Shown here: positions 1,214 through 19,364 of the stretch, one piece after another | Layout: each line of letters opens with the position of its first letter | Numbering within the stretch: position 1 is the first letter of the stretch | IMG/VR virus record: IMGVR_UViG_2526164632_000013 | Direction: 5' to 3' (one strand) | DNA length: 21,476 nucleotides | Source of the DNA: a virus | Taxonomy: Duplodnaviria > Heunggongvirae > Uroviricota > Caudoviricetes | Position numbers and translations under genes: made by a program | Notes under the pieces: model-generated | Seen by the model: only the letters and a program-made list of their open reading frames with translations | Database searches by the model: none | What the model was told of the DNA's origin: nothing

Positions 1214-2752
1214 ATGAGCAGCTCACTTCCTGACGATATCAATGCACTGAAACGTCTCCTTGCCGAACAGGAGGCGCTGAACCGTGCCCTGCTGGAAAAG
1301 CTGAACGAGCGTGAACGCGAAATAGACCATCTGCAGGCACAGCTGGATAAGCTGCGCCGGATGAACTTCGGCAGCCGCTCCGAAAAAGTCTCCCGTCGTA
1401 TCGCACAGATGGAAGCTGACCTGAAGGCACTTCAGAAAGAAAGTGATACCCTTACCGGTCGGGTTGACGACCCGGCCGTGCAGCGCCCGCTGCGTCAAAC
1501 CCGCACCCGCAAACCGTTCCCCGAATCACTCCCCCGCGATGAAAAACGGCTGCTGCCGGCAGCATCATGCTGCCCGGAATGTGGAGGCTCACTGAGCTAT
1601 CTGGGTGAGGATGCCGCCGAACAGCTGGAGTTGATGCGCAGCGCCTTCCGGGTTATCCGGACTGTACGTGAAAAGCATGCCTGTACTCAGTGCGATGCCA
1701 TCGTGCAGGCCCCCGCGCCTTCACGGCCCATCGAGCGGGGTATCGCAGGACCGGGGCTGCTGGCCCGCGTGCTGATCTCAAAGTATGCAGAGCACACCCC
1801 GCTGTACCGCCAGTCTGAAATGTACGGCCGCCAGGGCGTGGAGCTGAGTCGTTCACTGCTGTCGGGCTGGGTGGATGCATGCTGCCGGCTACTGTCACCG
1901 CTGGAAGAAGCGCTTCAGGACTATGTGCTGACTGACGGTAAGCTCCATGCTGATGACACGCCTGTCCCGGTGCTGTTGCCAGGCAATAAGAAAACGAAGA
2001 CCGGGCGGTTATGGACCTACGTTCGTGACGACCGTAACGCCGGGTCAACGCTGGCGCCGGCGGTGTTGTTCGCTTACAGCCCGGACAGAAAAGGCATCCA
2101 TCCGCAGACCCATCTTGCGGGGTTCAGTGGTGTACTGCAGGCGGATGCATACGCCGGGTTCAACGAGCTGTACCGGGATGGCCGGATAACGGAAGCCGCC
2201 TGTTGGGCTCACGCCCGCCGTAAAATCCACGATGTGCACGTTCGCACCCCGTCAGCCCTGACGGAGGAAGCGCTGAAACGGATCGGCGAACTGTACGCCA
2301 TCGAGGCAGAGATAAGGGGAATGACGGCGGAGCAGCGCCTTGCCGAACGTCAGTTGAAAACGAAACCGCTGCTGAAATCCCTGGAAAGCTGGCTGCGTGA
2401 AAAGATGAAAACCCTGTCGCGACACTCAGAACTGGCGAAAGCGTTCGCATACGCCCTGAACCAGTGGCCGGCGCTGACGTACTATGCAGATGATGGCTGG
2501 GCTGAGGCGGACAATAACATCGCTGAAAATGCGTTGCGGATGGTCAGTCTGGGCCGCAAAAACTACCTGTTCTTCGGTTCGGATCATGGAGGAGAGCGGG
2601 GAGCGCTGCTGTACAGCCTGATCGGGACGTGCAAACTGAACGGAGTGGAGCCAGAAAGCTACCTCCGCTATGTCCTTGACGTCATAGCCGACTGGCCGAT
2701 AAACCGGGTCGGCGAACTGCTCCCCTGGCGCGTAGCACTGCCGACTGAATAA
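1214..2752 (+). CDS. IS66-family transposase orfC (TnpC)
   Basis: 512-aa ORF with N-terminal coiled-coil/leucine-rich region, CPECGG...C..C zinc-finger-like motif, and a long catalytic region; homologous to the fragment at 2-340. Confidence 0.9.
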
Positions 2753-5045: not shown

Positions 5046-5141
5046 CTACCCCTTAATTGCCACAATTAACTGGGATACTACCCATAAAAAAGGGATGCTC
5101 CAGACCAGCAAAAATTTCCAGTTTGGTAATTGACTAATCAT
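5046..5141 (-). CDS. Tiny hydrophobic ORF A (31 aa), hypothetical
   Basis: MISQLPNWKFLLVWSIPFLWVVSQLIVAIKG; GGGAG 9 nt upstream of the ATG; 3' part of track ORF 5046-5258, whose 5' part spans a terminator hairpin. Confidence 0.25.
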   Translation of the reverse strand: MISQLPNWKFLLVWSIPFLWVVSQLIVAIKG

Positions 5142-5206
5142 GAGTCGCAACTCCCTAATCAGTTTGCTAAAATCAATCAAGGCAGCCTCCCATAGCTTAC
5201 TGCCAT

Positions 5207-5250
5207 AAAAACAAAACCCCGCTTGCTGCCAACAAACGGGGTTTTTACTT
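5207..5250. terminator. Bidirectional rho-independent-like hairpin downstream of the endolysin gene
   Basis: AAAACCCCG (5213-5221) pairs with CGGGGTTTT (5237-5245) around a 15-nt loop, with a T-run after the stem on the plus strand and an A-run before it (a T-run on the minus strand). Confidence 0.5.
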
Positions 5251-5335
5251 TTATTCACTTACGTTTCGCCAGTTCGCAGGATTTCGTGTTATCCGCCCGC
5301 GTGGCCATGCCTTATTTTTCAGCAAAATATTCTGC

Positions 5336-5869
5336 TTATCTGTCGATACCCCAGCACGCCAGCGCGCTCTCCTGGTCACGACGGGATACCTGACCGTAGC
5401 AGTTGTTTGAACGAATACGGCAGTCTCTGCCACCGTCCTTAATCCACCAGCGAATCGCCTCACACGCTCCCCTGCGATCACCTGCATTAATTCGTTTATA
5501 AAACGTCGACGGGAAACACTTACCGGGACCAATGTTGTACGGACAGAATGACGCGATCCCCGCTTTCTGGGGTTCGCTCAATGCCACTTTGATGTTTTTC
5601 TCCACCCATGCCAGCGCCTTATCACGCTCAATGGCGTTGACCTGGTCGCATTTTTCCTTCGACAGTTTCATACCGGGAAAAACGGGTTTTCCATCCACCA
5701 TCGTGGCCCCCCGACAGATGGTCCAGATGCCGGAACCATCGCGGTATGCCGTAGTGTGGTTACCCTCTTTTTCATCCAGAAACTGGTCGAGAATATCAGG
5801 CGCGGGCGCACCGACGGCAATCAGTGCCAGAACGGCAGCCGACAGGCCGTATCTGATTTTTGCGTTCAT
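5336..5869 (-). CDS. R: SAR endolysin (lysozyme, phage 21 R-like)
   Basis: 177 aa; N-terminal weakly hydrophobic Gly/Ala-rich segment YGLSAAVLALIAVGAPAP typical of signal-arrest-release endolysins; lysozyme-like core; sits downstream of a pinholin. Confidence 0.85.
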   Translation of the reverse strand: MNAKIRYGLSAAVLALIAVGAPAPDILDQFLDEKEGNHTTAYRDGSGIWTICRGATMVDGKPVFPGMKLSKEKCDQVNAIERDKALAWVEKNIKVALSEPQKAGIASFCPYNIGPGKCFPSTFYKRINAGDRRGACEAIRWWIKDGGRDCRIRSNNCYGQVSRRDQESALACWGIDR

Positions 5870-8515: not shown

Positions 8516-8963
8516 GAATCCTCCCGGCCGGGATAATATTGTGAGTAAAATGAGGAGCGGGCTGAAGTCCGGAAGTTACAGGACAATGGCAGAAGAGAGA
8601 CAACAGCCCGCAATACGAAAAAGGCCGCGCTATTGCGCAGAGTGATTACTGTCGGATATTATTCGCCAGCTGAAATATTACTTCACGTTTTGTTGTTTAT
8701 TCCTTGCCGCCCGCGTCTCCCAGCGCGGGCTTTTTTTGTCCATAAGAAAGCCCCTCCGGAGAGGGGCTGGAGAGTGGCGCTATGTGCCATTGCATGGTGC
8801 CGGGTGCCTCCCGGTGAATTCAGTACCAGCACCTGAATCCGCGATTATCCCATATACCTACTCGCTGATTGCCCCTCCGCACAGGGGGATTCACCATGCC
8901 AGTTTCTTTTAACAAACTCCCCGCAAAACAGACAACTGTCAACCGTCTGAATTGTGAGACATT

Positions 8964-9003: not shown

Positions 9004-9080
9004 TGGCGCGTTGTACTGGATTCGAACCAGTGACCGATTGCTTAGAAGGCAATTGCTCTGTCCGGCTGAGCTAACAACGC
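9004..9080 (-). tRNA. argO: tRNA-Arg (anticodon UCU)
   Basis: Manual fold: acceptor GCGTTGT/ACAACGC, anticodon stem ATTGC/GCAAT, loop CTTCTAA (anticodon TCT), T-arm GGTTCGAATCC, discriminator G, CCA encoded. Symbol assigned by position, following the ileZ-argN-argO order of Stx-phage late regions. Confidence 0.85.
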
Positions 9081-9093
9081 ATGATGCAGATAA

Positions 9094-9170
9094 TGGACCG
9101 CCATCGGGGACTTGAACCCCGCGCAGCCAGCTTCGAAGGCTGGCGCTCTTTCCTGATGAGCTAATAGCGG
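9094..9170 (-). tRNA. argN: tRNA-Arg (anticodon UCG by manual fold)
   Basis: Acceptor CCGCTAT/ATGGCGG (one G-U pair), anticodon stem CCAGC/GCTGG with loop CTTCGAA (anticodon TCG), T-arm GGGGTTCAAGTCCCC, CCA encoded. Symbol by position only. Confidence 0.75.
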
Positions 9171-9177
9171 TATGTGA

Positions 9178-9253
9178 TGGTGGCCCTTGCTGGATTTGAA
9201 CCAGCGACCTGGCGATTATGAGTCGCTCGCTCTCACCACTGAGCTAAAGGGCC
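9178..9253 (-). tRNA. ileZ: tRNA-Ile2 (anticodon CAU, AUA-reading ileX/ileZ-like)
   Basis: GGCCCTTTAGCTCAGTGGTGAGAGCGAGCGACTCATAATCGCCAGGTCGCTGGTTCAAATCCAGCAAGGGCCACCA is near-identical to E. coli ileX as recalled; anticodon loop CTCATAA. Confidence 0.85.
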
Positions 9254-13610: not shown

Positions 13611-13646
13611 TTCAAATGCGTTGAAAATAAAAACAAAAACCCGCCG
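13611..13646 (-). terminator. Rho-independent terminator of the hok transcript
   Basis: Minus-strand AACCCGC-ttcg-GCGGGTT followed by TTTTGTTTTTATTTT. Confidence 0.6.
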
Positions 13647-13723
13647 AAGCGGGTTAAGTGCGGGTGCGTTGAGGATGCCTGACACATCAGCGGTGGCGAG
13701 GGATTTCTCCCCCGCCTGGTCTC

Positions 13724-13879
13724 TTACTCCTCAGGTTCGTAAGCTGTGAAGACAGCGACCTCCGTCTGGCCGGTTCGGATTCGTACCTCGCAGAGGTCTT
13801 TCCTCGTTACCAGTGCCGTCACTATGACGGTTAAACAGATGACGATCAGGGCGATTAACATCGCCTTTTGCTGCTTCAT
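13724..13879 (-). CDS. hok: Hok/Gef-family type I toxin (HokD/RelF-like)
   Basis: 51 aa MKQQKAMLIALIVICLTVIVTALVTRKDLCEVRIRTGQTEVAVFTAYEPEE, the Hok family signature; AAGGAG Shine-Dalgarno. An in-frame upstream ATG (13936) with its own Shine-Dalgarno gives a 70-codon mok-like frame. Confidence 0.85.
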   Translation of the reverse strand: MKQQKAMLIALIVICLTVIVTALVTRKDLCEVRIRTGQTEVAVFTAYEPEE

Positions 13880-14090
13880 AGCCTGCTTCTCCTTGCCTTT
13901 CGGCGCGTAAGAGGCTAACCTACGTTTGTGAAGCATAGATTGGGCCTCAGATTAATGTTAAGCGTCTTGCAGGACGCGTAATGTTAACTGGGGCTTTTCT
14001 CTGTCTGCCTTACGGTGGCATGCCCGAGGCAGACAGCCTCAAGCACCCGCAGCAATTCTACTTAACTCCCGTCACCTCGCCAATATAAAA

Positions 14091-14180
14091 TCAATCAGAA
14101 AGGCGATCCATAAGAACAATAGCAAGACAATAAATTGCCACTACAGCCGCAATAGCCAGCGCGCATTTGAGAACCAGCAC
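14091..14180 (-). CDS. 29-codon hydrophobic ORF with strong RBS (hypothetical small membrane peptide)
   Basis: AGGAGG then 5 nt then GTG; (M)LVLKCALAIAAVVAIYCLAIVLMDRLSD; 70 nt downstream of the SIR2-like gene on the same strand. Not in the ORF track (under 60 aa). Confidence 0.35.
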   Translation of the reverse strand: MLVLKCALAIAAVVAIYCLAIVLMDRLSD

Positions 14181-14250
14181 GATAACCTCCTGTATTGGAC
14201 GTACACCAGCTCTGATAAATATGAGGCTGCCTCTTTAACTTCGCATTGCG

Positions 14251-15282
14251 CTACCAATCAATAAAATCAGTGATGTTATCCAACCTAATTACAGTAACTT
14301 CCCGTCTCAACTGGTTTTTCCAATATATCTCACGAGCGTTTTGTTCACCAGCACCGCTCCACTCAATTACTCTTAAAGGCTTAGAGGTTAGGTAAGGTCG
14401 AATAAGCAGGTTAAGGTGAATATCGAGACCAGAGTAACCAAACAATATTATTTCTTCTGATTCAAATAATGCAAACTGCAAATAATCCCAGTACGTAGAA
14501 AGAACATTAGATGCTGCTATAACTGACGGTTTTCTTTTTATATGAGTTAACACTATATGCTCACTAGGTTCATCTATGTCAAGAGTAAGTTGTGAGCGTG
14601 AAAGTTTTAAAACATTTTCATGCTGATTAATAAATAGTGGTGAACCATGCAAGTGCAAATAATAACCAAACCTACGATTGTATTTCCGTTCGAGCGCTGC
14701 AGAGGAAAATCCGTGGCTTAGCATCCCATCAACTAAAACCCCATCATACCCGTTGAATATATCATTATCTATGAATGAATTGTATAATAATTTGTCATAG
14801 TTTAATGTCGCGATATGTGAGTGTGTGTTCTTTACAAACTCCACAAGCGCATTTTCGAATCTTTGTGGCAAACCTTTATCGTAATTATGCAACCTGGTTG
14901 CAACTTTGTGAATATAAGTGGCGGTAATTTTGGGGAAGTTTAGTCCATCTTCAGTAAGCCAATGCACGTTCCCCTCTCCAATTTGAGCAAGAGCTTTACA
15001 ATATGTGACAGCCTGGTGAAGGGTATCCAACTCATGTTCTCCTTCTGGTGGACCTTGCCGCTGAAGACAACGCTCGATAAGTTGCTTGTGGATATCTTTT
15101 AAAAAATTGGGGCGATGCCAAATTTCTTCCAACGCTCTGTCTAAGGAGAAGTGAGCAGGATCTAAAGCCATACCGAGACCGTTGCCGAATATTATTAATT
15201 TTCTTGCCATATAGGGGGACTCATATTGGAATAACGCTGGATAGCGTCGCGCGATACGCTTAAGTTTAGGATTAATAGACAT
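14251..15282 (-). CDS. Standalone SIR2-like (SIR2_2-type) protein, candidate NADase defence effector
   Basis: 343 aa with the ordered motif set of defence-type SIR2 domains as recalled from ThsA: IIFGNGLGMA (Gly-rich NAD loop), IATLNYDKLL (TNYD-type, putative catalytic Asn161), YYLHLHGS (putative catalytic His212), ILFGYSGLD. No other domain. The gene and its 370-bp upstream region are visibly AT-rich compared with flanking phage genes (not computed). Confidence 0.8.
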   Translation of the reverse strand: MSINPKLKRIARRYPALFQYESPYMARKLIIFGNGLGMALDPAHFSLDRALEEIWHRPNFLKDIHKQLIERCLQRQGPPEGEHELDTLHQAVTYCKALAQIGEGNVHWLTEDGLNFPKITATYIHKVATRLHNYDKGLPQRFENALVEFVKNTHSHIATLNYDKLLYNSFIDNDIFNGYDGVLVDGMLSHGFSSAALERKYNRRFGYYLHLHGSPLFINQHENVLKLSRSQLTLDIDEPSEHIVLTHIKRKPSVIAASNVLSTYWDYLQFALFESEEIILFGYSGLDIHLNLLIRPYLTSKPLRVIEWSGAGEQNAREIYWKNQLRREVTVIRLDNITDFIDW

Positions 15283-15650
15283 TCCGTTTGATTACTCTTG
15301 TTATTACAAACTTGCATGCAAAGAAGCCCAAGCTGTTAGGTAAACAGAGACCGCAGTGGCAAGATAATCTAGATATAGCCTATAAAATCCAACAACAAAT
15401 AGCGGCCTGTTTTCTATGACTTTTCTTTTCCCTAAATATCGCTTATCTAATAAAATGCAATAATGTATTGCACAGTATTTAATGTGTATTAATATAGATA
15501 AGTATTGGTCTTATTTGATAACAAATCCTGAGCCTCAAAATGTCTGCTTTTCACACAAAACCAACAAGTAGGCTATTTTTAGCTCTGTGCCGCGAAAATG
15601 TCAATTCATATCCGAACCAATACTCTTTAATTTCATTACCTGTGACAATT

Positions 15651-16058
15651 CTAGGCATATCCCTGATAGAACGCCAATACACGCTGCATAACTTCGCTCT
15701 TCCGGCACTCGCGACAGATTATGTTCATACGCCTGTCGTAGCGGCGTATTTCTCCGTCGGGTAATGTCCAGATAAGGCCCGGATCAACCACAACAGGTTT
15801 CTTCACCTTTGCCCTCGAGAGTTTTTTGCGGGCGTTTTGCCAGTCCTTACGAGCCCGTTCTGACGGGAACACCCCATAGCCAGAGTGATATACATCACCA
15901 CTGGCAACCAGCTCTCTGGCAAGAACGCTCATCAGATATCTTGTCGCACCTGTTTTAGCTTCCAGTTGCCGTAACGTCTCACGACCGCTCTGGCGCACGA
16001 GTTCCACCACCTGTCCTTTAATTTTTTCCCGCTCTTCCTGTGTAAATACTTTTGCCAT
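15651..16058 (-). CDS. Hypothetical protein downstream of the replication initiator
   Basis: 135 aa; AGGAGG Shine-Dalgarno 4 nt upstream of the ATG; basic, with a CRECRK motif. Not recognisable as a helicase loader. Confidence 0.6.
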   Translation of the reverse strand: MAKVFTQEEREKIKGQVVELVRQSGRETLRQLEAKTGATRYLMSVLARELVASGDVYHSGYGVFPSERARKDWQNARKKLSRAKVKKPVVVDPGLIWTLPDGEIRRYDRRMNIICRECRKSEVMQRVLAFYQGYA

Positions 16059-19306: not shown

Positions 19307-19364
19307 TTTCTGGTGACGTTTGGCGGTATCAGTTTTACTCCGTGACTGCTCTGCCGCCGTTTTT
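19307..19364 (+). ncRNA. dicF: DicF small regulatory RNA (ftsZ-targeting)
   Basis: TTTCTGGTGACGTTTGGCGGTATCAGTTTTACTCCGTGACTGCTCTGCCGCC followed by GTTTTT matches the 53-nt DicF sequence as recalled; lies in a 570-bp non-coding gap between the ydfC-like and dicB-like genes, as in Qin. Confidence 0.8.

What the first reader, a model, noticed from the sequence alone, without database searches (positions are those of the whole stretch)
14091..14180. 29-codon hydrophobic ORF with a near-perfect RBS immediately downstream of the SIR2-like gene
AGGAGG-5 nt-GTG precedes an ORF encoding (M)LVLKCALAIAAVVAIYCLAIVLMDRLSD, a single predicted TM helix with a short charged tail. It is on the same strand as the SIR2-like gene, 70 nt downstream, with no obvious intervening terminator. 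It could be a membrane-acting partner of the SIR2 protein, an independent type I toxin-like peptide, or chance. It is too far upstream of hok to be mok. The ORF track cannot show it (under 60 aa).
Basis: seen in the sequence. Interest (0 to 1): 0.6.

Follow-up and report, generated by a model that had tools for sequence, protein, structure and literature searches.

The report
Conserved prophage mini membrane-protein gene
The 29-codon reading frame is a real, conserved gene for a tiny single-helix membrane protein of unknown function; it travels with the neighbouring hokD toxin locus of E. coli and Shigella prophages rather than with the SIR2 gene beside it.

Summary

It is not chance. The segment occurs in 2510 of 5426 complete E. 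coli genomes, in Shigella pINV plasmids and in four temperate phages. About 135 further copies keep the frame. Changes are enriched for synonymous sites in this frame only (P=0.009), and dN/dS is about 0.1–0.5. A 34-aa homologue, about 50% identical over the aligned helix and with many synonymous codon differences, sits in the same place upstream of hokD in 837 genomes.

Most copies also carry a promoter footprint: TTGA[AG][TG], a variable 17-nt spacer, then an invariant CATATT. This window's copy has lost the −35 hexamer.

It is not a SIR2 partner. SIR2 lies upstream in 9 of 134 loci, whereas Hok lies downstream in 106 of 116. The gene marks the conserved right border of a cargo hotspot.

No antisense RNA, structured mRNA or known toxin family was detected, so "type I toxin" is unproven. 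Databases call it "hypothetical" or "membrane protein", and I found no functional study.

Verdict: a genuine, uncharacterised small membrane-protein gene of modest interest.

The parts
14091..14180 (-). sORF coding sequence: GTG start, 29 codons plus TGA. The peptide is (M)LVLKCALAIAAVVAIYCLAIVLMDRLSD, one hydrophobic helix (about residues 6-24) with an LM(D/E)(R/H) end and a short polar tail.
   Evidence: The frame is kept in about 135 copies. Synonymous changes are in excess only in this frame. dN/dS is 0.1-0.5. PGAP annotates it in some genomes as WP_000960667.1.
14186..14191 (-). Shine-Dalgarno sequence AGGAGG, 5 nt before the GTG.
   Evidence: GGAG is kept in all 26 copies found without using the SD as a search term, as CAGGAGG, CAGGAGA or TGGGAGG.
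14212..14223 (-). Conserved block CATATTTATCAG. CATATT is the predicted -10 hexamer of the sORF's own promoter, and the transcription start is inferred about 7 nt downstream. In this window the matching -35 (TTGA[AG][TG] in other copies) is replaced by ATGCGA, because the 3' end of SIR2 reaches into this region.
   Evidence: CATATT is invariant. The spacer is always 17 nt but 15 of its 17 columns vary. TTGA is invariant in 11 of 12 unique upstream sequences.
14055..14083 (-). Predicted hokD promoter (TTGGCG, 17 nt, TAGAAT). It starts 8 nt after the sORF stop codon, so the sORF lies outside the canonical hok mRNA.
   Evidence: Position 1 of the Rfam sok/hok-leader model aligns at 14048.
13874..14048 (-). 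hok mRNA leader with the sok antisense region (Rfam RF01794, 116 bits).
13724..13936 (-). mok (70 aa), which contains hokD (13724..13879, 51 aa; Pfam HOK_GEF, E=3e-23).
13638..13655 (-). Intrinsic terminator-like hairpin followed by a T-run after hokD. It is the first terminator-like site outside coding sequence downstream of the sORF.
14251..15282 (-). SIR2-family gene (343 aa). It is variable cargo inserted immediately upstream and is not part of the conserved unit.

Best explanation
The ORF is a genuine, autonomous gene for a 29-residue single-pass inner-membrane protein. It belongs to the conserved sORF-hokD/sok-rem flank of Qin-like lambdoid prophages of Escherichia and Shigella. SIR2 is merely one of many cargo genes inserted just upstream of that flank.

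Shown by computation: the frame, start codon and Shine-Dalgarno sequence are conserved; the protein sequence is under purifying selection; two deeply diverged alleles (29 aa and 34 aa) occupy the same position; and most copies carry a sigma-70-type promoter footprint (TTGA[AG][TG], 17 nt, CATATT) that gives a leader of about 30 nt.

Inferred: in most prophages the gene is transcribed from its own promoter in the lysogen, like a 'moron', and also by read-through of the phage early-right operon. In this window the -35 hexamer is lost, so it is probably co-transcribed with SIR2. With no terminator before hok, its transcript probably continues into the hok locus. The peptide inserts into the inner membrane as one helix and acts there through helix-helix contacts with itself or a membrane partner.

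A constitutive-looking promoter, a strong RBS and no detectable antitoxin make it more likely tolerated at native level (a modulator or exclusion-type small membrane protein) than an acutely lethal toxin.

Rough probabilities: real translated gene about 0.85; linked to the hokD flank and not to SIR2 about 0.9; own promoter about 0.6; the specific non-toxic membrane-modulator role about 0.4.
For: The segment is present in 2510 of 5426 complete E. coli genomes, in 143 plasmids of which 124 are Shigella pINV, and in 4 temperate phages.

Of 137 pattern-anchored copies, 126 analysable ones carry the standard 29-codon ORF. Three are 35 aa through an 11-nt deletion of the stop, one is 31 aa, and none has a premature stop or frameshift.

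There are 47 distinct site changes, 22 of them synonymous against 29% expected (P=0.009). By codon position the counts are 16, 8 and 23. None of the other five frames is significant. Pairwise dN/dS is 0.10-0.5 for most diverged pairs.

The 34-aa homologue on L138 and L139 has 12 of 23 aligned helix residues identical, 7 of them with different codons. It has its own AGGAGG-type RBS and an ATG start, and it again lies just upstream of the hok promoter. It occurs in 837 genomes.

Hok lies within 600 nt downstream in 106 of 116 loci, and SIR2 lies upstream in 9 of 134. The SIR2 gene is in only 46 genomes.

Intact copies exist without hok, in L009-type loci and on pINV. Some annotators already call it 'hypothetical protein' or 'membrane protein'.
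Against: No transcription, translation or localisation data were found. The peptide strings and accessions occur in no searchable paper, nor in the held supplements of the Sakai Ribo-seq study.

The hexamers score only 8 of 12 against consensus, below the promoter scanner's threshold, and this window's copy lacks the -35.

The sequences are closely related (mostly above 80% identity), so the selection test rests on 47 changes. The family is confined to Escherichia and Shigella, which limits comparative power.

Variability shows no significant helical periodicity, so there is no evidence for a specific interaction face. The proposed non-toxic role is an argument from the absence of antitoxin signals, not a measurement.
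Confidence: 0.7

Rival explanations
1. It is the toxin of a previously unrecognised type I toxin-antitoxin pair. A membrane-depolarising peptide would be held in check by an as yet unseen antisense or trans-acting sRNA, next to and possibly cooperating with hok/sok.
For: It is a small, extremely hydrophobic peptide with a short charged tail, 29 aa like TisB and ZorO (lengths from my own knowledge). It lies adjacent to a bona fide type I locus. A promoter-like site on the opposite strand (TTAACT, 18 nt, TAAAAT; 14062..14091, + strand) would produce an RNA antisense to the ORF. RNAalifold pairs the SD (CAGGA) with the 3' end of the ORF (UUCUG), a layout reminiscent of the 5'-3' sequestration seen in type I toxin mRNAs.
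Against: In many variants the antisense -10 reads TGAAAT instead of TAAAAT, and in the 34-aa allele the whole spacer differs. No terminator was found for such an RNA. There is no Rfam match and no repeat indicating a complementary sRNA gene. The mRNA folds no better than shuffled sequence (z=0.12). The consensus structure is weak, with 2 compensatory pairs, and the SD pairing is invariant and therefore uninformative. There is no Pfam, NCBIfam or PADLOC toxin family. HMM scores against Hok, TisB, Ldr, Ibs, ShoB, DinQ and ZorO fall within the shuffled range. A conserved constitutive-type promoter plus a strong RBS is hard to reconcile with an unguarded lethal toxin.
Confidence: 0.15
2. It is a functional accessory of Hok. 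It would be co-transcribed with hok from the upstream promoter and would modulate Hok insertion, oligomerisation or lysis timing after prophage induction. Alternatively it would protect the lysogen from leaky Hok.
For: Hok lies within 600 nt downstream in 91% of loci. Two deeply diverged alleles both sit directly before the hok promoter. No terminator separates the two genes. In a HokD-anchored sample, about 60% of loci carry some small hydrophobic ORF at this position. A prophage Hok (HokW) has been shown to assist lysis and phage release after induction (PMC8621323).
Against: Gene order in lambdoid phages is conserved in any case, so synteny is weak evidence. Intact copies persist without hok (L009-type loci and pINV). 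Many hokD loci, K-12 among them, have no such ORF. The four small-ORF types at this site are not detectably related to one another. There are no interaction data.
Confidence: 0.2
3. It is a membrane partner or effector of the SIR2 protein, forming a two-gene defence system.
For: It is on the same strand, 70 nt downstream, with no terminator between. In all three SIR2-carrying genomes inspected, the SIR2 gene sits at this site.
Against: SIR2 is upstream in only 9 of 134 sORF loci, and 12 different upstream sequence clusters precede the ORF. The sORF is in 2510 genomes against 46 for SIR2. Homology to other loci begins about 20 nt after the SIR2 stop, so the two genes lie on different mosaic segments. 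Other cargo at this site includes a restriction endonuclease, a DUF4145 protein, QueH and an acetyltransferase. PADLOC links the SIR2 protein only weakly to SIR2 families and has no model matching the peptide.
Confidence: 0.03
4. It is a non-functional or only cis-acting ORF. It would be conserved by hitch-hiking with the hok promoter region, or its translation rather than its product would matter, for example by stopping ribosomes or transcription before hok.
For: The copies are closely related. Stop-creating mutations are intrinsically rare in this sequence (about 1% of possible changes), so the absence of stops is uninformative. There is no experimental evidence for the product.
Against: There is a frame-specific synonymous excess and dN/dS below 1. 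The 29-aa and 34-aa alleles have saturated dS but keep the helix core ALA..V..(I/V)YCL..(L/F)M(D/E)R. Hydrophobicity is retained in all variants.
Confidence: 0.1

Closest known systems
Small single-pass inner-membrane proteins of E. coli and its prophages, found by RBS models and ribosome profiling (the class that includes MgtS, AcrZ, YohP and the Qin-prophage protein YnfS)
   Same: Under 50 aa, one hydrophobic helix, a strong RBS, a location in a formerly 'intergenic' stretch, narrow taxonomic range and frequent omission by annotators.
   Different: No sequence relationship to any named member. There is no Pfam, NCBIfam or PHROG family. YnfS scores only 9.5 bits against the family HMM, while shuffled controls reach 6.3. 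Function, partner and expression have not been studied.
Hok/Gef type I toxins with the mok/sok/fbi regulatory architecture (R1 hok/sok, chromosomal hokA-E, prophage hokW-sokW)
   Same: A hydrophobic N-terminal helix containing a Cys, and a location directly beside a complete hok/sok locus in a prophage.
   Different: It is 29 aa rather than about 50 and lacks the periplasmic C-terminal domain. It has no HOK_GEF match even at E<=10 and scores -6 bits in the reciprocal HMM test. It lies upstream of the hok promoter and has no overlapping mok-like frame, no sok-like RNA and no structured mRNA.
Other E. coli type I toxins of similar size (TisB, ZorO, DinQ, ShoB, Ibs, Ldr)
   Same: Size and hydrophobicity, and toxicity on overexpression would be plausible.
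   Different: No sequence similarity. No cis-antisense or divergent complementary sRNA was detected. The helix has no internal charged residues, unlike TisB, ZorO and DinQ (from my own knowledge of those sequences).
Phage 'morons': promoter-bearing accessory genes expressed from the prophage
   Same: It has its own conserved sigma-70-type promoter footprint inside an otherwise operonic region. It sits at the edge of a cargo hotspot and is carried by active temperate phages (Tritos, Evi, mEp460_ev081, HannyBb).
   Different: It has no terminator of its own, so its transcript should run into hok. It is a conserved flank element rather than variable cargo.

Membership tests
Hok/Gef family (PF01848) and the hok/mok/sok locus | Match to the HOK_GEF profile, with a toxin of about 50 aa carrying a conserved C-terminal periplasmic region | tested here: not met
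   No HOK_GEF hit for the peptide at E<=10, whereas the neighbouring mok/hok ORF scores E=3e-23. HokD scores -6 bits against the sORF family HMM.
Hok/Gef family (PF01848) and the hok/mok/sok locus | Position inside the hok mRNA, overlapping or coupled to hok as mok is | tested here: not met
   The ORF ends 8 nt before the predicted hok -35 and 43 nt before the position aligned to nucleotide 1 of the Rfam hok-leader model.
Type I toxin-antitoxin system (generic) | Small hydrophobic membrane peptide | tested here: met
   29 aa, GRAVY 1.9, one hydrophobic stretch of about 19 residues.
Type I toxin-antitoxin system (generic) | Cognate antisense or partially complementary sRNA antitoxin | tested here: not met
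   There is only a non-conserved promoter-like site on the opposite strand, with no terminator. No Rfam family matches. No repeat indicates a complementary sRNA gene. An unknown sRNA cannot be excluded without RNA-seq.
Type I toxin-antitoxin system (generic) | Stable, highly structured toxin mRNA with a sequestered RBS | tested here: inconclusive
   The MFE is -43.4 kcal/mol against -43.8 for shuffles (z=0.12). The consensus fold is -15 kcal/mol with 2 compensatory pairs. The predicted pairing of the SD with the 3' end is invariant and so carries no covariation support.
Type I toxin-antitoxin system (generic) | Growth arrest or killing on expression, neutralised by the RNA | not testable with these tools
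   Requires inducible expression. No report was found.
SIR2-based multi-gene defence systems (a SIR2 protein plus an obligate partner) | Consistent co-occurrence of the partner gene with the SIR2 gene | tested here: not met
   9 of 134 sORF loci have SIR2 upstream. The sORF is in 2510 genomes and SIR2 in 46. No PADLOC model matches the peptide.
Small inner-membrane proteins (operational class) | Conserved ORF under 50 aa with an RBS and a predicted transmembrane helix | tested here: met
Small inner-membrane proteins (operational class) | Demonstrated synthesis and membrane localisation | not testable with these tools
   No Ribo-seq, tagging or fractionation data were found for this ORF.
Phage moron | Own promoter active in the lysogen | tested here: inconclusive
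   The phylogenetic footprint is TTGA[AG][TG], a 17-nt spacer and CATATT, with a variable spacer and invariant hexamers. It matches only 8 of 12 consensus positions, the -35 is lost in this window, and no TSS data exist.

The most novel reading that the evidence does not exclude
The sORF, together with the unrelated 27-aa, 32-aa and 34-aa hydrophobic ORFs that replace it at the same spot, may represent a position-specific class of Hok-associated mini membrane proteins. Under this reading, prophage hok/sok loci would be three-component modules. An upstream peptide, co-transcribed into the hok mRNA from its own promoter, would either be a second membrane toxin or would tune Hok pore formation, lysis timing or abortive infection.
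Probability: 0.15. Interest if true: 0.6.

Novelty: new member of a known kind. Interest (0 to 1): 0.35.

Why it matters
Nearly half of complete E. coli genomes and the Shigella virulence plasmids carry this gene, yet it is usually unannotated and has never been studied. It lies between two things people do study: a hotspot where lambdoid prophages exchange defence cargo (here SIR2), and the hokD/sok toxin locus.

Knowing that the ORF belongs to the conserved flank prevents it being mis-assigned as part of a 'SIR2 system'. It also gives a precise landmark for the right edge of the hotspot. And it flags a promoter whose transcripts should enter hok, which could matter for how prophage Hok is switched on after induction.

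If the peptide proves to be toxic or to modulate Hok, the classic two-part hok/sok picture would need a third player in prophages. If not, it is one more small membrane protein awaiting a partner.

Tried and rejected
I worked around this with a 40-codon window reference. It returned only Escherichia hits.

2. A full HMMER scan of 1.84 billion representatives found 9 hits, all at least 80% identical. There is no wider family.

3. Pfam, NCBIfam, PHROGs and PADLOC have no family for the peptide.

4. Rfam at permissive thresholds, a single-sequence fold, RNAalifold and a repeat search all gave no support for a structured RNA or a partner sRNA.

5. I tested for a conserved helical face, which would suggest a specific helix-helix interface. 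It was not significant (P about 0.4), so I make no such claim.

6. I tested for homology to Hok, TisB, Ldr, Ibs, ShoB, DinQ and ZorO, and to the other small ORFs found upstream of hok. All scores fell within the shuffled range.

7. Literature searches for the peptide strings and RefSeq accessions, for the hokW-sokW paper, and in the Sakai Ribo-seq supplements and the CFT073 small-protein preprint found no mention of this ORF.

8. A 96-aa ORF overlaps the sORF in another frame in L001 (2849..3139). I rejected it as coding because that frame shows no synonymous excess (8 of 47).

9. A 13-nt imperfect inverted repeat flanks the sORF cassette in L001. It is not conserved on pINV and I treated it as chance.

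10. The MAFFT conservation profile of extended flanks was dominated by non-homologous outliers and I did not use it.

Full report
**Observation**

The ORF is real and lies on the minus strand: GTG at 14180..14178, 29 codons, TGA at 14093..14091. AGGAGG occupies 14191..14186, 5 nt before the GTG. The SIR2-like ORF (14251..15282, minus strand; Pfam SIR2_2) ends 70 nt upstream, and the terminator scan finds no terminator-like site in between.

On both strands of the window, AGGAGG followed by a start codon within 4-9 nt occurs only three times. One precedes the DUF977 gene, one precedes this ORF and one precedes a 6-codon frame. The peptide (GRAVY 1.9) is more hydrophobic than all 105 other ATG ORFs of 20-45 aa in the window.

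**Setting**

The window is a Qin-like lambdoid prophage. Rfam finds DicF, three tRNAs, STnc100 and a full-length hok-leader/sok match at 13874..14048.

Read on the minus strand, the gene order is DUF977, SIR2, the sORF, hokD with mok and sok, rem, DUF968, RusA.

A promoter-like site (TTGGCG, 17 nt, TAGAAT; 14083..14055) lies just upstream of the nucleotide that aligns to position 1 of the hok-leader model. The sORF therefore ends 8 nt before the hok -35 hexamer. It is outside the canonical hok mRNA and is not mok, which is the 70-aa ORF at 13724..13936.

**What the ORF travels with**

Megablast of 13650..14300 shows that only about a dozen of the best hits cover the SIR2 end. Well over a thousand genomes match from 14233 down through hokD with different genes upstream.

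The sORF segment alone is found in:
- 2510 of 5426 complete E. coli genomes;
- 143 plasmids, 124 of them Shigella pINV, where it lies upstream of icsP and hok is truncated;
- four temperate phages: Tritos, mEp460_ev081, Evi and HannyBb.

In 134 loci with upstream context, a SIR2 homologue is present in 9, and the adjacent 300 nt fall into 12 unrelated clusters. Hok is found within 600 nt downstream in 106 of 116 loci.

The SIR2 gene itself occurs in only 46 genomes, and in the three I inspected it sits at this site. Other cargo seen at the site includes a restriction endonuclease, a DUF4145 protein, QueH and an acetyltransferase.

The ORF therefore belongs to the conserved right flank of a cargo hotspot. 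Its proximity to SIR2 is positional.

**Is it coding?**

I anchored a search on upstream non-coding sequence plus the SD and start codon, leaving the ORF body free. It returned 137 copies.
- 126 analysable copies carry the standard 29-codon ORF.
- 3 are 35 aa, because an 11-nt deletion removes the stop.
- 1 is 31 aa.
- None has a premature stop or an internal frameshift.
- The only 1-codon hit is a chance pattern match, and one further copy is cut by a contig end.

Among 27 nucleotide haplotypes there are 47 distinct site changes. Twenty-two are synonymous, against 29% expected (binomial P=0.009). By codon position the counts are 16, 8 and 23. None of the other five reading frames shows such an excess.

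Nei-Gojobori dN/dS is 0.10-0.5 for most diverged pairs, for example 0.10 between the window and L009 and 0.32 between the window and pINV.

The absence of stop codons is not informative by itself, because only about 1% of possible changes would create one.

**A diverged allele at the same position**

The strongest single piece of evidence came from a tblastn hit. It is a 34-aa ORF (MSDDLSLAMEGALAVISVVGVYCLVVFLMDRMGN) with its own AAAGGAGG RBS and an ATG start, lying just upstream of the hok promoter on an IncY plasmid. A close variant sits upstream of hokD in 837 genomes, O157:H7 included, and PGAP annotates it as a hypothetical protein.

Over the 23 aligned helix codons, 12 residues are identical to the window peptide, and 7 of those 12 use different codons. 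dS is saturated and dN is about 0.3-0.4. The flanking non-coding DNA is unrelated until the hok -10.

So two old alleles of one small protein occupy the same position.

**Expression signals**

I assembled 26 copies without using the upstream motif as a search term, which gave 17 unique upstream sequences. Twelve representative ones were tabulated.
- The hexamer CATATT is invariant.
- TTGA[AG][TG] lies exactly 17 nt upstream in 11 of the 12.
- 15 of the 17 spacer columns vary.

This is the footprint expected of a sigma-70 promoter, although it matches only 8 of 12 consensus positions. It predicts a leader of about 30 nt.

The window's own copy is the exception. The 3' end of SIR2 replaces the -35 with ATGCGA, so here the ORF is probably co-transcribed with SIR2. 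With no terminator before hok, transcripts should continue into the hok locus and end at the hairpin at 13655..13638. These steps are inferred, not shown.

**Is it a type I toxin?**

Size and hydrophobicity fit. The other defining features were not found.
- The mRNA folds no better than shuffled sequence (z=0.12).
- The consensus fold is weak, with two compensatory pairs. A predicted pairing of the SD with the ORF's 3' end is invariant and therefore untestable by covariation.
- The one promoter-like site antisense to the ORF (14062..14091, + strand) loses its -10 adenine in many variants and has no terminator.
- There is no Rfam match and no repeat suggesting a complementary sRNA gene.
- No Pfam, NCBIfam, PHROG or PADLOC family matches.

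A conserved promoter and a strong RBS without a visible antitoxin argue that the peptide is tolerated at native levels. I therefore rank a lysogen-expressed small membrane protein above a type I toxin, but neither is demonstrated.

**Relation to Hok**

Synteny with hok is strong, but gene order is conserved in lambdoid phages in any case. Intact copies also persist where hok is absent, in L009-type loci and on pINV.

I took 80 IMG/VR loci chosen only for an identical HokD and looked at the position just before the hok promoter. It holds:
- the 29-aa type in 13;
- the 34-aa type in 8;
- a 27-aa ORF (M[TS]WPEA..VYSICRWG) in 21;
- a 32-aa ORF (MEKIDVLIL..CIEYWR) in 15.

The 27-aa and 32-aa ORFs are hydrophobic and not detectably related to the 29/34-aa family. 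A prophage Hok (HokW) has been shown to aid lysis and phage release after induction (PMC8621323). That paper does not mention an upstream ORF. A Hok-linked role is therefore possible but untested.

**Distribution and prior knowledge**

Every database hit is from Escherichia or Shigella, or from obviously contaminated MAG contigs.

Exact-sequence look-ups show that the peptide is deposited as 'hypothetical protein', 'membrane protein' or 'conserved hypothetical protein', in REL606 and BL21(DE3) among others. PGAP calls it in some genomes (WP_000960667.1) but not in the genome identical to this window.

No paper in the searchable library contains the peptide strings or accessions.

**Verdict**

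Chance and the SIR2-partner reading are rejected. The toxin reading is unproven and lacks its regulatory hallmarks.

The ORF is a genuine, uncharacterised small membrane-protein gene. It is a new member of a known kind and part of the conserved sORF-hokD flank of a prophage cargo hotspot. Interest is modest (0.35). It would be higher if the peptide proves to be a third component of prophage hok/sok modules.

Noticed in passing
window 14251..16058 (minus strand); compare L001, L005, L006, L008, L009, L011: The interval between the DUF977 (Ren-like) gene and the sORF-hokD flank is a cargo hotspot. Different prophages carry SIR2, a restriction endonuclease, a DUF4145 protein, QueH, an acetyltransferase or hypothetical genes there, on either strand. 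Homology resumes about 20 nt after the SIR2 stop.
   Followed up: partly
L143 1206..1289; L142 1144..1242; L138 1364..1447; L139 about 2388..2465: Two other small hydrophobic ORFs occupy the position just upstream of the hokD promoter in other prophages. One is a 25-27-aa ORF (M[TS]WPEA..VYSICRWG), often overlapping the upstream gene's stop as ATGA. The other is a 32-aa ORF (MEKIDVLILMFGHINALFLGVFMAVMCIEYWR). They are found in 21 and 15 of 80 HokD-anchored loci and are not detectably related to the 29/34-aa family.
   Followed up: partly
L007 (pWR501) 1744..1833, with icsP at 2123: Shigella virulence plasmids carry an intact ATG-initiated copy, MLVLKGTLAIAAVMTIYCLIVVLMERFSD. Its promoter footprint and the hok promoter hexamers are retained, but the hok leader decays after about 60 nt and runs into the icsP upstream region. 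The hok-type promoter lies about 245 nt before the icsP start codon.
   Followed up: partly
L010 about 2060..2170; also L077 and L087: A variant downstream of a second SIR2 allele (87% identical) has an 11-nt deletion that removes the stop codon and part of the hok -35 region. This extends the peptide to 35 aa (..FSDWRGRGS). In L010, hok is in addition interrupted by an ISEsa1-type element.
   Followed up: partly
L221 2869..3942; L140 2740..3828: In ETEC and pig isolates an IS481-family element is inserted between the sORF and hokD, separating the two genes.
   Followed up: no
L141-L220 series (the 'neither' class): Some hokD loci keep only the last six codons of the sORF (..MDHLSD*) fused to unrelated upstream sequence. 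Others keep only the 3' flank of the 34-aa allele. These look like recombination or cargo-insertion breakpoints inside the small gene.
   Followed up: no
L001 2740..3000: About 260 nt of non-coding sequence upstream of the sORF promoter footprint is conserved in the largest group of loci (96 of 134). It has no Rfam match and no convincing ORF, and its function is unknown.
   Followed up: partly
L139 2606..2660; L138 1588..1645: In the 34-aa allele the spacer before the hok promoter contains a near-perfect palindrome, CCGTATGGGAATTCCCATATCGG, followed by a small GCAAA..TTTGC hairpin. Both are absent from the 29-aa allele.
   Followed up: no
L003 (K-12 MG1655) 5120..5634: K-12 hokD sits 72 nt after relE. 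It lacks the sORF, and homology to the window starts only inside the hok leader, so its upstream part appears to be missing. The standard laboratory strain cannot be used to study this ORF.
   Followed up: yes
window 8738..8928, 9007..9253 and 19308..19359: An STnc100 sRNA homologue (139 bits), three tRNA genes (Ile, Arg and Arg in the identical RefSeq genome) and DicF are present in the same prophage.
   Followed up: no
window 14062..14091 (+ strand): A promoter-like site (TTAACT, 18 nt, TAAAAT) lies back-to-back with the hok promoter and would transcribe antisense to the sORF. Its -10 is not conserved in many variants.
   Followed up: partly
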